Origin: Vulcanimicrobiota bacterium
Lineage (GTDB): Bacteria > Vulcanimicrobiota > Vulcanimicrobiia > Vulcanimicrobiales > Vulcanimicrobiaceae
Direction: 5' to 3'
DNA length: 46,894 nucleotides
Assembly: GCA_003135555.1 (NCBI GenBank)
Contig: PLCF01000008.1
Coordinates: 1 to 46,894 of the forward strand
Part shown: positions 18,001 through 21,000 of the stretch, in pieces
How the letters are laid out: each line of letters starts with the position of its first letter
How positions within the stretch are numbered: the stretch's first letter is position 1
Position numbers: made by a program

Positions 18001-21000
18001 AATGGTCGTACCGGGCCGCGATGCGGACCGGCGTGGATTCCAGCGCTGGGGCATAGGCGAGTGCCATGGACGAGACTTCGGCGGGCGCGCTGGGCGGCCT
18101 AGCCGTTGAGGTCGACCACGATCTCGGTCGCCAGGGCGAGCACGAAGCCGGCACCGACCATCGACGCCGAACGGAAGCCGATCCCGGTCTTCTTGAGCAC
18201 GGCCCACAACTCGCCGATCACGTAGATCAACGCCCCGACCGCGGTCGCGAGAAACAGCGTCGAGAGCAGCGGTGAGGACAACGCATAGCCGACGATGGTG
18301 CCGATGAACGTCGGCCCGCCGGCGACGAGTCCGGCCAGCCCGAGCTGTTTCCAGGTCGGGACCGTGCCGCGCCCGGCCAGCGGCGCGGCGATCCCGAAGC
18401 CCTCGGTCGCGTTGTGGAGCGCGAAGCCGACGATCAGCCCCACCGCGACGACGGTAGCGCCGGCCGCGGCCGACGCGCCGATCGCGAGCCCTTCGGCGAA
18501 GTTGTGCGCGCCGATCCCGACCGCGATCATCATCGCCAGCGCGAGCGGGTTGTCGGCCACCTTCGCACCGTGCCGCGCGACCCGCGACGACGCGACCCCG
18601 AGACCGCCCAGCCCGAGCATCAAGCCCAGTACAAACACGACCGCCGACGCGACGGGCGCCGGCGCGCCGCCCTTCCAAGCGATCGCCCCCGAGGTGATCG
18701 GACGCAACGCGCCTTGCGCGATCTCGACGACCAGGTACGCCAGGATCCCGATCGCCAGCGCGTTGAGCAGGCCGATCGTGTGCGGCGACAAGTTGCGCGC
18801 ACGCGCCACGGGCAGCCCCAAGAAGATCGTCAGGCCGGCGAATGCGCCCAACAGAACCGTCGCGAGAAACGACAGCTTCCCGGGCCCCTGCGGGTTCGCC
18901 GGCGGCATCGCCATGTCGCGCATCGCGGCAAGCATCGCGCCGAACTTCTGCGGGGTTCCAGCGTAGTGCAGTGCCGTGATCAATCCCGACGGCATCCCTG
19001 CGGCGTCCTCGATGTGCGCCAGCACGTGGCACTGGAGCATCCACGTTCCGGGTATCGCGTTGGCCGGTACGATCACGTCGACGCGCTGCGACGGCAAGAG
19101 TGCGATGCTGTCCTCGCGCTGCGGGCGATCGAGCGGCCACGCATCGCGCGCGATCACGATCTGTTCGTGGCCGTGGATGTGCATTGTGTGCACTTCCTCG
19201 GCTGACATCGAGACGTAGCGGATGCGCACCCGCTCGCCGCGGCGCACCTCGAGCTGCGTGGTGTCCGGATACTCCTTCCCGTTGATCGTGTTGTCGGTCT
19301 CGTTGGTGGACTGCACCGGCCACGACGACACGAACAGCAGGTAGTCGCGGTCGGCGCGTTCTTCGGGTCGCGGCTGCGCCGGATGCACGATGATCGCGCC
19401 GTACAGCCCGGCATCGAGCGCGGCCTTGCGGTCGTGGGTGTGGTAGATGAACGTTCCGGGCTGGGTCGCGGTGAAGGCGTAGCGATAGCGGCCGTGCGGC
19501 GGAACGGGGTCCTGTTCCCAGCCGGCGACGCCGTCGGCGGCGGGCGGCGTGCCGTGGATCCCGTGGAGGTGGATCGTGTCGGGGGTGTCGAGCTCATTGC
19601 GATAGTCGATCACGACCCGGTCGCCCTCGCGCACGGCGATGACCGGCCCCGGGACCACCCCGTTGTAGGTGCGCGCCATCAGCGTCAGCCCGGCTTTGAG
19701 CGTCCATGGCGCGGGGCGCCCGACGATGTGGAAGATTTTCGTGCGACCGTGAACCTCGGGCACCGCGTCGTAGGCCCCGTCGGGGCGGCGGACGATCCGG
19801 GACTCCCCCGGGAACGGGGTTGCCTGCGGGAACGGCGGTCGCAACGGCTGCATCCCGACTTGGGCCGGGTTGACGGCCATCCCCGGCATGTCGTCGGCCG
19901 AGGCCTGTCCCGGGAGCGGCGCCAGGACGGCCCAACCCACGGCGAGGGCGAGGCCGAGCTTGTAGGCCAACCTCACGGCCGACGTAGGCATGCCTAACTG
20001 TTACGCGAAAGGCGGACCCGCGGCCTTCCGTGCGGCGGCGCTAGTCCTTGGCGAAGTAGTCGAGCGAGCTGTAACGGCCGGTCGCGAGCTTCTCGCGCTG
20101 CATGAGCAAGTCGTCGAGCAGCGCCGAGGCGCCGATGCGGAACAGGCCGGGCGACAACCACGGATCGCCCAGGGTCTCATCGAGCAGCACCAGGTAGGCG
20201 ATCGCGGCTTTGGTGTTGCGCACGCCTCCGGCGACCTTGAGGCCGCGCTGCTCGCCGGTGCGGCGCGCGAAGTCGCGCAGCGCTTCGGCCATCACCAGCG
20301 CGGTCGCGAGCGTCGCGGACGTCCCGATCTTGCCGGTCGAGGTCTTGATCACGTCGGCGCCGGCTTCGAGCGCGAGGTCGCTGGCGCGGCGCGTCGCGTC
20401 GTACGAGCCCAGCTCGCCGGTTTCCAGAATGACTTTGAGGTGGATCGGGCCGCACAACGTCTTGACCGCCGCGATCTCGGCGAAGACGTGGTTTTCGTCG
20501 CCGGCGAGAAACGCGCCGCGGTCGATCACCATGTCGATCTCGTCGGCGCCCGACGCCAGCGCTGCCTCGGTGTCGCGCAGCTTCACGTCCAGCGACGAGA
20601 GGCCGCTGGGGAACGCCGTTGCGACCGAGGCCACCAGCACGCCGGTCCCGAGCAGGGCCTGCTTGGCGACGGCGACGAGGTTGGGATAGACGCACACCGC
20701 TGCCACCCGCGGCGCGCCGGGTGCGGGATAGGCGGCCTTGGCGCACAGCGAACGAACGCGGCCCGGCGAGTCCCGGCCTTCGAGCGTGGTCAGGTCGATG
20801 CAGCGAATCGCCAAGTCGATCGCCGCGAGCTTGGCCTCGTTCTTGATCGAGCGTTTGGCGAAGCCCGCCGCGCGGGCTTCGAGCATCACCGCGTCGACCG
20901 TCGGCGACGCCGATGACAGGAGAAGGGGCATGCCTCCGTACGTTCGAGAAAGTCGCGCTGCGTGACCTCGTACCGCCCGCCGCTCGACGGCATCCGCGTA

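What a model noticed while it worked through the whole genome (the two positions that open the first line are those of the whole stretch)
18099..19991. Two-domain multicopper oxidase fused to a ZIP metal permease in one polypeptide
g02694 (630 aa) carries a signal peptide, a two-domain multicopper oxidase with its copper-ligand histidine motifs, and a C-terminal ZIP/ZupT-type membrane permease. I read it as an oxidase-coupled importer: the periplasmic oxidase converts a reduced metal ion (Cu+ or Fe2+/Mn2+) at the mouth of its own ZIP channel, a one-chain counterpart of yeast Fet3-Ftr1. New would be Rosetta-stone proof that MCO and ZIP work together, so far only guessed from neighbouring genes in ammonia-oxidising archaea.
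Evidence so far: Pfam: Cu-oxidase_3 res 101-206 (3e-29), Cu-oxidase_2 230-329 (1e-15), Zip 485-591 (2.6e-10). Four His-rich copper motifs and a hydrophobic C-terminal half from about res 385 are visible in the sequence. 671 full-length homologue clusters at E<=1e-20; of the best 120 (58-88% id, 590-680 aa) 98 carry the Zip family besides the MCO families (counted by eye), labelled 'ZIP family zinc transporter' or 'multicopper oxidase domain-containing protein', from Eremiobacterota MAGs. In Nitrososphaera viennensis MCO and ZIP permease genes are 'directly linked in the genome' and proposed, untested, to take up copper (PMC7785015, passages, call 139).
(Added by a program. Inside this text positions count along the whole contig: contig position 1 is position 1 of the stretch shown here. 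"Call 12" and the like, gene names such as g00115 and contig names such as C1 are that model's own, and its searches are not shown. The text may have been shortened before it was handed on; [...] marks where a part breaks off. The agent that wrote the report below was given it as the finding of a first reader that could run no searches.)

Follow-up and report, generated by a model that had tools for sequence, protein, structure and literature searches.

The report
Iron-regulated copper oxidase fused to ZIP transporter
A peat-soil bacterium makes one protein that joins a secreted copper-containing oxidase to a complete ZIP metal-import channel, and its control site points to an unstudied oxidase-assisted uptake machine, most likely for iron.

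Summary
Window 18099-19991, on the minus strand, is one intact 630-aa gene. It encodes a signal peptide, a two-domain multicopper oxidase (MCO), a Met-rich helix and a complete 8-helix ZIP. The join is not an assembly artefact.

Three results are new.
1. The pairing arose more than once. There are MCO-ZIP and reverse-order ZIP-MCO proteins. The same ZIP clade is also fused to blue-copper cupredoxins and to cytochrome c.
2. A palindrome, TTAGG-N4-CCTAA, lies on the start codon. It is present in 28 of 36 related loci but in only 1 of 1049 control windows. In 15 loci the box precedes a DtxR/IdeR-family repressor gene followed by MCO-ZIP. Those repressors keep IdeR's iron ligands. Elsewhere the box precedes Cyc2-like cytochrome-porins, an Nramp, a TonB receptor and a ferritin.
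3. The window's own copy has Gln where one trinuclear-copper His should be (8 of 122 relatives share this).

The mechanism is inferred, not shown. The scan met this family before on another genome (e1-4160999); I tested its "iron box" lead here and it largely holds. I found no paper on the fusion.

The parts
18099..19991 (-). Whole gene: 630-aa MCO-ZIP fusion protein (stop codon at 18099-18101)
   Evidence: ORF and translation; Pfam; coordinates re-translated
19984..19997 (.). Palindromic operator-like box. It reads TTAGGCATGCCTAC on the gene strand, one mismatch from TTAGG-N4-CCTAA, and the ATG start codon (19989-19991) lies inside it
   Evidence: Box found in 28 of 36 related loci against 1 of 1049 control windows
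19896..19991 (-). Signal peptide, residues 1-32: basic n-region, hydrophobic core, 'ASA' before Asp-Asp; no twin arginine
   Evidence: Read from the sequence. The cleavage-like 'ALA-DADE' is conserved in alignment A1. No signal-peptide predictor was run
19374..19691 (-). MCO cupredoxin domain 1 (residues 101-206), with H141-x-H143 and H184-T-H186. The type-C relatives have a Cys in the second motif; here it is Thr
   Evidence: Pfam; alignment to 2zwn and 3g5w; invariance in 122 of 122
18957..19304 (-). MCO cupredoxin domain 2 (residues 230-345), with H268-x2-H271-x-H273 and Q320-C321-H322-x3-H326...M333. The type-1 copper site is in this domain
19032..19034 (-). Codon of Gln320, where 114 of 122 relatives have the trinuclear-cluster His
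   Evidence: Contigs from three studies that cover it have no other letters
18876..18956 (-). Met-rich linker (residues 346-372). A predicted helix at 349-361 carries M353, M357, M360 and M362
   Evidence: Met is 13.6% of the linker against 2.3% of the rest (medians of 122); M353 and M357 each present in 120 of 122; helix
18102..18875 (-). Complete ZIP permease (residues 373-630, 8 helices)
18492..18506 (-). ZIP helix-4 metal motif H496-N-F-A-E500
   Evidence: Invariant in 122 of 122; re-translated
18402..18416 (-). ZIP helix-5 metal motif H526-N-A-T-E530
   Evidence: Invariant in 122 of 122; re-translated

Best explanation
The gene encodes a Sec-exported, membrane-anchored homotrimeric two-domain multicopper oxidase. 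A Met-lined helix ties each subunit to its own complete ZIP permease. The gene belongs to the small regulon of a DtxR/IdeR-family metal-dependent repressor, whose palindromic operator lies on the start codon. It should therefore be switched on when the sensed metal, most likely iron, is scarce.

Proposed working: periplasmic Fe(II) gives one electron to the type-1 copper in domain 2. The trinuclear copper cluster at the subunit interface reduces O2 to water. The metal is handed to the tethered ZIP and carried into the cell. This would be a ZIP-based counterpart of oxidase-dependent iron uptake as in Fet3-Ftr1 or EfeUOB.

Shown here: the architecture, conservation of both metal sites, repeated independent fusion, the operator and its regulon, and the predicted trimer.

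Inferred: repression by the metal-bound regulator, the identity of the metal, ferroxidase activity, the direction of transport, and whether the ZIP carries Fe(III) or Fe(II).
For: 1. One frame, with all parts whole.
2. Copper and ZIP ligands are invariant in 122 of 122 relatives, except position 320.
3. The MCO domain modelled as three copies scores ipSAE 0.95 against a best control of 0.00. The runs agree in at least 97% of contacts and the partner pLDDT is at least 91. H141/H143 of one chain touch H273/H271 of the next. By the tool's calibration, 20 of 30 solved pairs and 1 of 23 single chains reach the mark. Trimeric relatives are solved, so the pass may come from memory.
4. Fusions occur in both orders, and the same ZIP clade is fused to T1 cupredoxin and to cytochrome c.
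5. The box TAGG-N4-CCTA lies at or on the start codon in 28 of 36 loci, against 1 of 1049 control windows and a shuffle mean of 0.16.
6. In 4 genomes and 11 metagenome contigs the order is DtxR-family gene, then MCO-ZIP as one ORF. The box stands in front in all 4 genomes and in 9 of the 11 contigs.
7. Those regulators keep IdeR's Met10, Cys102, Glu105 and His106; the best solved match is IdeR 1fx7 at 1.2e-22. The same genomes hold a separate MntR-type paralogue.
8. Of 30 box loci in relatives, 18 stand before a Cyc2-like cytochrome-porin, 5 before the regulator, 2 before MCO-ZIP alone, and 1 each before an Nramp, a TonB-dependent receptor and a small ORF plus ferritin.
9. A reverse-order ZIP-MCO contig has a 16 of 19 match to the recalled Fur-box consensus upstream; 1 of 2000 shuffles reach that.
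10. Stand-alone ZIP relatives in Thermoleophilia sit divergently beside a DtxR-family gene, with TGTAAGG-N4-CCTTACA between them.
Against: - ZIPs are known only to carry divalent ions, so Fe(III) made by the oxidase is not a known ZIP cargo.
- The Met-rich linker, and Met-Met beside the T1 His in the sister clade, look like Cu(I) sites rather than Fe(II) sites.
- This copy lacks one trinuclear-cluster His (Gln320), and its box has one mismatch.
- The only DtxR-family protein of the window's genus has Glu where IdeR has Met10. NCBIfam scores the operon-linked regulator slightly higher as MntR than as DtxR (116 against 97 bits, both far below their cut-offs).
- The genome has two Fur-family genes that could handle iron.
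- In the window's own genome a matrix scan finds no second convincing box, and no close Cyc2-like gene (29% identity only). The assembly is 84% complete.
- The full-length model has pTM 0.49, so the oxidase is not confidently docked on the ZIP.
- The flanking genes of the window (aldolase, aldehyde dehydrogenase, EgtB-like) have no link to metals.
Confidence: 0.45

Rival explanations
1. Manganese system. The regulator is an MntR-type Mn(II) sensor and the ZIP imports Mn(II). The oxidase acts as a redox filter that oxidises competing Fe(II) (or Cu(I)) at the entrance, so that only the hard-to-oxidise Mn(II) gets in.
For: - The regulator of the window's genus has Glu-Glu-Tyr-Leu-Glu where MntR has acidic ligands.
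- NCBIfam's best model for the operon regulator is MntR.
- An Nramp carries the box in one relative (L066).
- The regulon is very small, as MntR regulons are (about one box per genome).
- The genome has two Fur-family genes for iron.
- ZIPs carry divalent ions only, which suits a filter better than a Fe(III) hand-over.
Against: - The operon-linked regulators keep the sulphur ligands Met10 and Cys102 of the iron sensors. All 10 family-f3 genomes with two or more DtxR-family hits have a second, weaker one; the five fetched show the D-Y...H...A-E-x-I-E-H pattern that I recall as MntR ligands.
- The co-regulated Cyc2-like protein, TonB receptor and ferritin point to iron.
Confidence: 0.2
2. Copper uptake, as the first reader proposed and as proposed for ammonia-oxidising archaea. 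The MCO is a cuprous oxidase and the ZIP imports the Cu(II) it makes.
For: - The linker is Met-rich, with Met at i, i+4, i+7 on a predicted helix, and the sister clade has Met-Met next to the T1 His. By recall, such motifs bind Cu(I) in CueO, PcoA and CTR1.
- Cu(II) is divalent and so fits a ZIP.
- In N. viennensis, MCO and ZIP genes are adjacent, and MCO genes are induced by copper limitation (PMC7785015, passages read).
Against: - The operator and regulators are DtxR-family; by recall, no copper sensor is known in that family.
- No copper chaperone, CopA, CsoR or CueR gene is conserved beside the gene in 37 loci.
- The co-regulated genes are of the iron/manganese type.
- The Met helix could instead collect copper for the enzyme's own four sites.
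Confidence: 0.1
3. The ZIP serves the oxidase rather than the reverse. It anchors the trimer to the membrane and/or supplies copper (or another metal) from the cytoplasm to an enzyme that is exported unfolded. The real substrate of the oxidase is something else, such as phenolics of peat or electrons from the Cyc2-like outer-membrane cytochrome.
For: - The signal peptide is Sec-type without a twin arginine, so copper must be loaded outside the cell.
- A degenerate stand-alone relative ends in a single membrane anchor (P0123).
- A Cyc2-like gene lies beside the fusion in two genomes (L012, L090).
Against: - The ZIP metal-site residues are invariant in 122 of 122, so transport is under selection.
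- ZIPs are importers in all studied cases (established knowledge).
- A cytochrome c fused to the same ZIP clade needs no copper supply.
Confidence: 0.1
4. In this particular copy the oxidase is crippled (Gln320 and Ala325), and only the ZIP still works.
For: Gln replaces a trinuclear-cluster His in 8 of 122 proteins, all in the window's sub-clade; Ala325 replaces an Asp that is present in 120 of 122. None of the 33 species-representative genes in which the motif could be read has Gln.
Against: The other 11 copper ligands, and the rest of the domain, are kept across the sub-clade at 65-88% identity. The same Gln-Cys-His occurs independently in the reverse-order protein P0129. By recall, His-to-Gln variants of Fet3p keep their copper.
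Confidence: 0.1

Closest known systems
Fet3p-Ftr1p (yeast) and other oxidase-dependent iron uptake systems (FOX1-FTR1, EfeUOB, FetMP, P19-Ftr1); these names are from recall, except Fet3/Ftr1 as cited in PMC7785015 and PMC12218971 (passages)
   Same: An extracytoplasmic copper oxidase or cupredoxin is coupled to a membrane permease, and is probably switched on by metal starvation
   Different: Here the permease is a ZIP, not an Ftr1/OFeT protein. The oxidase is a trimeric two-domain MCO, not a three-domain one. Both are in one polypeptide. The iron link is inferred from regulators only
Two-domain MCOs mgLAC (2zwn) and Nitrosomonas europaea blue copper oxidase (3g5w)
   Same: Best sequence and fold matches (4.2e-43 and 1.3e-37; Foldseek ranks 1-3); predicted trimer with the copper cluster between chains
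   Different: Those have the type-1 Cys in domain 1 (Tyr-His-Cys-His). Here that motif is His-Thr-His and the Cys is in domain 2. Here one cluster His is Gln, and the domain is fused to a transporter
ZupT/GufA-type ZIP transporters and BbZIP (5tsa)
   Same: 8 helices; His-Asn-x-x-Glu motifs in helices 4 and 5; BbZIP fold
   Different: No sequence-level match to any solved chain. The clade is repeatedly fused to periplasmic redox domains. It is tied to a trimer, whereas BbZIP is described as a dimer (recalled)
MCO plus ZIP permease gene pairs of ammonia-oxidising archaea (PMC7785015, passages)
   Same: The same two families are linked genetically, and an uptake role has been proposed
   Different: Those are separate genes, proposed for copper and untested. 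Orthology to this family was not tested here
IdeR/DtxR regulons of Actinomycetota
   Same: The repressor has Met10, Cys102, Glu105 and His106. The operator is a palindrome with TTAGG/CCTAA ends. The targets are metal uptake and storage genes
   Different: The spacing is N4 rather than the 19-bp IdeR box (recalled). The regulon is very small. The version in the window's genus has Glu at the Met10 position

Membership tests
Two-domain multicopper oxidase | Two cupredoxin domains | tested here: met
   Pfam Cu-oxidase_3 and Cu-oxidase_2; Foldseek 2zwn, 3g5w and 3gdc, probability 1.00
Two-domain multicopper oxidase | Eight His ligands of the trinuclear cluster in four H-x-H motifs | tested here: not met
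   7 of 8 in this copy: position 320 is Gln. His is there in 114 of 122 relatives
Two-domain multicopper oxidase | Type-1 copper site (His, Cys, His, axial Met) | tested here: met
   H268, C321 and H326 in 122 of 122; M333 in 114 of 122, at unusual spacing
Two-domain multicopper oxidase | Homotrimer with the cluster between domain 1 of one chain and domain 2 of the next | tested here: met
   Prediction only: ipSAE 0.95 against best control 0.00. Residue 141 contacts 273, and 143 contacts 271, across chains. May reflect solved relatives
Two-domain multicopper oxidase | O2-dependent oxidase activity | not testable with these tools
   Needs the enzyme
ZIP (Zrt/Irt-like) transporter | Pfam Zip above the curated cut-off | tested here: met
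   37.7 bits against 35.1, only just. Relatives fall on either side of the cut-off
ZIP (Zrt/Irt-like) transporter | Eight membrane helices with the BbZIP fold | tested here: met
   Model pLDDT 94.9, pTM 0.90; the ten best Foldseek hits are all BbZIP
ZIP (Zrt/Irt-like) transporter | Metal-binding motifs in helices 4 and 5 | tested here: met
   H496-N-x-x-E500 and H526-N-x-x-E530 in 122 of 122. That these are the binding positions is recalled from ZupT/BbZIP
ZIP (Zrt/Irt-like) transporter | Import of a divalent metal | not testable with these tools
   Needs uptake assays
Fet3-Ftr1 type oxidase-permease (OFeT) | Permease of the Ftr1/OFeT family | tested here: not met
   The permease is a ZIP; no Ftr1 family hit
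Fet3-Ftr1 type oxidase-permease (OFeT) | Iron-starvation control | tested here: inconclusive
   Operator present. IdeR-type regulator in one operon with the fusion in 15 related loci. The window's genus has a hybrid regulator, so iron against manganese is not settled
Fet3-Ftr1 type oxidase-permease (OFeT) | Ferroxidase site with acidic residues by the T1 His | tested here: inconclusive
   E328 (117 of 122) and D329 (111 of 122) follow H326, but D325 is Ala here, and the sister clade has Met-Met instead
DtxR/IdeR-family regulon | Palindromic operator at the promoter or start | tested here: met
   28 of 36 loci against 1 of 1049 control windows. The box stands before the regulator's own gene in 5 genome loci and 9 of 11 metagenome loci
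DtxR/IdeR-family regulon | A regulator of the family in the same genome | tested here: met
   One hit, G000:C56:16187-16846
CueO-type cuprous oxidase | Met-rich segment near the T1 site and Tat export | tested here: inconclusive
   Met-rich linker present. No twin-arginine in this signal peptide. The domain count differs (two against three)

The most novel reading that the evidence does not exclude
ZIP transporters can be redox-coupled. This ZIP clade has repeatedly recruited a periplasmic one-electron centre (two-domain MCO, blue-copper cupredoxin or cytochrome c). In Eremiobacterota the MCO-ZIP, together with a co-regulated Cyc2-like outer-membrane cytochrome-porin, forms a two-membrane oxidative iron-uptake route under an IdeR-like repressor. 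The ZIP either accepts the freshly made Fe(III), or the oxidase acts as a redox selectivity filter for the channel.
Probability: 0.2. Interest if true: 0.88.

Novelty: new variant of a known kind. Interest (0 to 1): 0.72.

Why it matters
Oxidase-dependent iron uptake is known only with Ftr1-type permeases, and ZIP transporters are thought to work without a redox partner. This finding offers three things:

1. A conserved single chain joining a copper oxidase to a ZIP, found in both gene orders and with cupredoxin and cytochrome c variants. That makes a redox-ZIP partnership directly testable with one gene.

2. A concrete regulatory handle: the box plus a DtxR/IdeR-family repressor. The handle also places Cyc2-like "iron-oxidising" porin-cytochromes in a metal-starvation regulon. 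This would widen the reading of Cyc2 homologues that are used as markers of iron oxidation in metagenomes.

3. A possible explanation of how a widespread, uncultured peat and soil phylum obtains iron where Fe(II) and O2 meet.

It does not settle the copper-uptake idea for archaeal ammonia oxidisers.

Tried and rejected
- Gene neighbours as a clue to the metal. Across 37 loci the commonest neighbours are an FAD monooxygenase (15), unknown ORFs (13 and 10), a glyoxalase (9), a histidine kinase (8) and a cytochrome c (5). None is a metal gene and none is in the window.
- MCO beside the closest stand-alone ZIPs. None lies within 7 kb in 18 loci.
- A global regulon in the window's own genome. A matrix scan gave only the gene's own box at 14 bits or more, plus one site in an AT-rich stretch of C85. 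A 10.2-bit site before an Nramp on C33 is too weak to count.
- Sigma-70-like promoter scan of 17900-20300: 0 sites. The three terminator-like hits lie inside the gene and I ignore them.
- Sequence search of the ZIP part against solved structures: 0 hits at E<=1. The fold search was needed.
- Full-length fold search: dominated by MCO hits and uninformative for the ZIP.
- Full-length AlphaFold model: pTM 0.49, no confident domain arrangement.
- The listing of cluster members for taxon names of the reverse-order and cupredoxin fusions could not be made because the database was switched off. Their organisms remain unknown.
- RNA evidence: no RNA holder is listed for this stretch, so nothing can be said on expression.
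- The metagenome scan with the reverse-order protein P0126 mostly returned same-order operons. Only L144 is reverse order with upstream DNA.
- The Drosophila Mco4 paper (PMC12218971; abstract and passages) does not link the MCO to a ZIP.
- NCBIfam and Pfam give no family for the Cyc2-like proteins.
- Literature searches for the fusion found nothing on it: 'multicopper oxidase + ZIP + fused + permease' (11 papers), 'ZIP + cupredoxin + fusion + transporter' (32 papers, 15 listed), 'multicopper oxidase + ZIP permease' (1 paper), 'Eremiobacterota + multicopper oxidase' (1 paper) (listings read). Subscription journals are not covered.
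Full report
**The object.** The window holds one open frame at 18099-19991 on the minus strand (630 aa). Its third-position GC is 0.91, like the real genes around it. Pfam finds Cu-oxidase_3 (residues 101-206, 2.6e-32), Cu-oxidase_2 (230-329, 1.2e-24) and Zip (485-591, 1.8e-9, 37.7 bits against a cut-off of 35.1).

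The ZIP is whole, not a fragment:
- NCBIfam ZupT aligns residues 376-588 to profile positions 6-222 of 266.
- AlphaFold gives eight helices between residues 375 and 629.
- A model of the ZIP part alone, built on 28 sequences, reaches pLDDT 94.9 and pTM 0.90. Its ten best Foldseek matches are all BbZIP chains (5tsa, 3.5e-6).
- A sequence search of that part against solved chains finds nothing.

The N-terminus reads as a Sec-type signal peptide ending in Ala-Ser-Ala, with no twin arginine. This is read from the sequence; no predictor was run.

ZIP termini face outward (established for BbZIP). So an N-terminal secreted oxidase followed by eight helices is topologically consistent. The reverse order is consistent as well.

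**The fusion is real.** The homologue search gives 680 proteins at E<=1e-5. The best 120 are 564-678 aa long and 58-100% identical, and 98 of them carry the precomputed Zip label. The other 22 are a threshold effect: in my alignment of 122 fusion proteins both ZIP motifs are present in all.

Species-representative genomes hold the same single frame in 36 loci, two of them cut by contig ends. Nearly all are Eremiobacterota (Vulcanimicrobiota) MAGs. In a draw of 301 genomes of the phylum, 175 have a match at E<=1e-30: 138 of 206 in the window's family, 22 of 22 in family f3, and 9 of 19 (without the window's own genome) in the window's genus. The far families match only weakly. Eight unpublished genomes are inside these tallies.

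Contigs of peat-metagenome runs from three studies tile the gene, including both sides of the linker, with no gaps and 0-2 other letters per contig. One of these runs may be the source of the window.

**The oxidase.** The closest solved proteins are the two-domain laccase mgLAC (2zwn, 4.2e-43) and the Nitrosomonas europaea blue copper oxidase (3g5w, 1.3e-37).

The copper sites are arranged differently, however. The domain-1 motif that carries the type-1 Cys in those proteins is His-Thr-His here. The Cys sits in domain 2, in Gln320-Cys321-His322-x3-His326.

In 122 fusion proteins H141, H143, H184, H186, H268, H271, H273, C321, H322 and H326 are invariant. Position 320 is His in 114 and Gln in 8. 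Those 8 are the window's protein and its seven nearest clusters. None of the 33 species-representative genes in which the motif could be read has Gln. The codon is identical in contigs from three studies. The unrelated reverse-order protein P0129 has the same Gln-Cys-His.

So this lineage has a stable variant of the trinuclear cluster. What that does to activity is unknown.

Three copies of residues 62-348 are predicted to form a trimer:
- ipSAE is 0.95 against 0.00 for the best of three controls.
- The runs agree in at least 97% of contacts, and the partner pLDDT is at least 91.
- His141 and His143 of one chain touch His273 and His271 of the next, which is the geometry of two-domain MCOs.
- By the tool's calibration, 20 of 30 solved pairs and 1 of 23 single chains reach this mark.
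- Trimeric relatives are solved, so the pass may be from memory.

A working oxidase therefore implies three ZIP domains under one trimer.

**The linker.** Residues 346-372 are 13.6% Met against 2.3% in the rest (medians of 122 proteins). M353 and M357 are each present in 120 of 122. The model puts residues 349-361 in a helix, so Met353, 357 and 360 share one face. The sister clade adds Met-Met directly after the T1 His. By recall, such motifs bind Cu(I). This is the only evidence for copper as substrate. It could equally serve to load the enzyme's own copper outside the cell.

**Repeated fusion.** A search of 1.84 billion cluster representatives, followed by Pfam on 27 of the hits and reading of the sequences, shows:
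- same-order fusions (P0121, P0122);
- reverse-order ZIP-MCO proteins (P0126, 667 aa; P0129, 620 aa);
- ZIP fused to cupredoxins (P0262 and P0256, which show the His, Cys, His, Met ligands, and P0227);
- ZIP fused to a CxxCH cytochrome c (P0171);
- ZIP fused to a cupredoxin-like domain plus an unknown part (P0236, P0257).

One metagenome contig (L144) also has the reverse order. Rosetta-stone logic thus supports a working partnership between this ZIP clade and a periplasmic one-electron centre. I did not build a rooted tree, so the number of independent fusion events is not counted.

**The control site.** The gene's ATG lies inside the palindrome TTAGGCATGCCTAC (19984-19997).

The pattern TAGG-N4-CCTA occurs within 400 nt of the start, usually abutting or containing the start codon, in 28 of 36 related loci. 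It occurs in 1 of 1049 control windows of the same loci. Shuffled upstream regions give a mean of 0.16 loci and a maximum of 3.

In 41 related genomes the full 14-mer occurs 40 times, against 24 for the reversed control, which is about one per genome (sums by my count). The 30 loci returned break down as follows:

| Gene next to the box | Loci |
|---|---|
| ~370-aa Cyc2-like protein | 18 |
| DtxR-family repressor gene | 5 (one in an unpublished genome, G036) |
| MCO-ZIP alone | 2 |
| Nramp | 1 |
| TonB-dependent receptor | 1 |
| Small ORF followed by a ferritin-like gene | 1 |
| Metallo-beta-lactamase-fold gene | 1 |
| Near a contig end | 1 |

One of the 18 Cyc2-like loci (L081) also has MCO-ZIP on the other strand.

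Fetching more DNA showed the order box, repressor gene, then MCO-ZIP as a single ORF of 635-699 codons. This holds in four genomes of family f3 and in 11 metagenome contigs, 9 of them with the box about 40 nt before the repressor gene.

Stand-alone ZIP relatives (42-50% identical) in Thermoleophilia lie divergently beside a DtxR-family gene with TGTAAGG-N4-CCTTACA between them. Two Baekduia loci have TTAGG-N4-CCTAA before the ZIP.

The palindrome is therefore best read as the operator of a DtxR-family regulator. That the metal-bound regulator represses from a site on the start codon is inferred from the family's usual behaviour.

**Which metal.** For iron:
- The operon-linked regulators align best with IdeR (1fx7, 1.2e-22) and keep Met10, Cys102, Glu105 and His106 (11 of 11 sequences).
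- The f3 genomes that have these regulators usually carry a second paralogue. The five I fetched show the D-Y...H...A-E-x-I-E-H pattern, which I recall as the MntR ligands.
- The co-regulated genes point the same way.
- A reverse-order fusion has a 16 of 19 match to the recalled Fur consensus upstream; 1 of 2000 shuffles reach that.

Against iron:
- The window's genus and family f2 have a single DtxR-family gene with Glu at the Met10 position, though Cys102, Glu105 and His106 are kept.
- NCBIfam scores the operon regulator slightly better as MntR than as DtxR, both far under their cut-offs.
- The window's genome has two Fur-family genes and three Nramps.

I put iron at about 0.45, manganese at about 0.2 and copper at about 0.1.

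**The Cyc2-like partner.** The ~370-aa proteins have a signal peptide and one CxxCH (17 of 18). In 15 of 18 they carry the motif P-x-[FY]-A-x-x-Y-x3-CxxCH-x3-P-x-L, and they mostly end with an aromatic residue.

Keffer et al. (PMC8406198, passages) define Cyc2 by AxPxFAR[Q/K][T/Y] before a single CxxCH, PxL after it, and a 16-strand porin resembling OprO/OprP. Here the Arg is mostly His. The Atlas model of one member matches Porin_O_P clusters at TM 0.79-0.84. Pfam and NCBIfam give no hit.

In G012, of the window's genus, this gene and MCO-ZIP diverge from one box. In L012 the Cyc2-like gene lies directly upstream of the fusion. I found no close copy in the window's own genome, which is 84% complete.

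**How it may work.** What is shown: a periplasmic, probably trimeric copper oxidase tied to a complete ZIP, under a metal-sensing repressor. What is inferred: under starvation the oxidase takes an electron from Fe(II) at the type-1 copper, reduces O2 at the interface cluster, and passes the metal to the ZIP.

The weak point is that ZIPs are known only for divalent ions. Either this clade accepts Fe(III), or the oxidase serves selectivity by removing Cu(I) or competing Fe(II). The full-length model does not place the oxidase on the channel (pTM 0.49).

**Novelty.** Four literature searches found no paper on the fusion. The nearest text is the untested proposal for archaeal MCO/ZIP neighbours (PMC7785015, passages). 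Databases label these proteins 'ZIP family zinc transporter' or 'multicopper oxidase domain-containing protein'. I class the finding as a new variant of oxidase-dependent metal uptake.

Noticed in passing
L056, L060, L065, L067, L068, L070-L074, L076, L079-L085 (box at about position 1501 of each); L090:2289-3400; L012:9-1028: A ~370-aa Cyc2-like fused cytochrome-porin starts right next to the same TTAGG-N4-CCTAA box in 18 of 30 box loci. It has a signal peptide, P-x-F-A-H/Q-x-Y, one CxxCH, PxL and an OprO/P-like barrel. In two genomes it lies beside MCO-ZIP. A Cyc2 homologue in a metal-starvation regulon is unexpected.
   Followed up: partly
P0262, P0256, P0227, P0171, P0236, P0257, P0228: Stand-alone-sized ZIPs of the same clade carry C-terminal periplasmic add-ons: T1 blue-copper cupredoxin, cytochrome c, or a cupredoxin-like domain plus an unknown ~250-aa part. 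Their organisms and genomic context are unknown.
   Followed up: partly
L047, L049, L051, L053, L054 (around 6930-6970 or 440): In Thermoleophilia/Gaiellaceae MAGs a DtxR-family gene and a stand-alone ZIP diverge from a shared palindrome, TGTAAGG-N4-CCTTACA. The regulators there have Asp/Glu and Gly-Asp at the usual ligand positions, an unusual set.
   Followed up: partly
L144:1-545: A reverse-order ZIP-MCO gene on a 55% GC metagenome contig has a 16 of 19 Fur-box-like site about 165 nt upstream (1 of 2000 shuffles reach it). The consensus used was recalled.
   Followed up: partly
P0123 (392 aa), P0124 (405 aa): P0123 is a stand-alone relative of the MCO part with the same N-terminal extension. 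It has lost copper ligands, including the Cys, and ends in a single membrane anchor, so it looks like a degenerate paralogue. P0124 reads like a frameshifted gene call.
   Followed up: no
L090:3736-4607 (G012): In a genome of the window's genus the MCO part is split over two frames near residue 300. This is either a frameshift or a sequencing error.
   Followed up: no
window 15312-16650 (-) and 16634-18154 (-): Downstream on the same strand lie an aldehyde dehydrogenase (Aldedh, 2e-163) and a DinB_2 plus FGE-sulfatase protein. By recall that is the EgtB/OvoA-like sulfoxide synthase architecture. The long ORF calls overlap, so the true starts are later.
   Followed up: no
window 20041-20900 (-): A DeoC/LacD-family aldolase ends 49 nt before the fusion gene's start. 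Any promoter of the fusion must therefore lie in that gene's 3' end or in this short spacer. No sigma-70-like site was found.
   Followed up: partly
window 24738-26075 (-), 27081-29903 (-): A 7TMR-DISM/GGDEF diguanylate cyclase and a type II/III secretion secretin. The secretin fits a cell with an outer membrane.
   Followed up: no
G000:C85:2368-2389: The second-best matrix match to the box in the window's genome lies in a low-GC stretch with weak coding signal. It is probably a chance match or a mobile element.
   Followed up: partly
residues 30-65 of the protein (window 19797-19904): The mature N-terminus 'ADADE...GLQPL.GPIP.ATP.PGES' is strongly conserved (A30, D33, G46, Q48, P49, T58, G62 and E63 invariant in 31 sequences), but it lies outside both Pfam domains and is poorly modelled. 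Its role is unknown.
   Followed up: no
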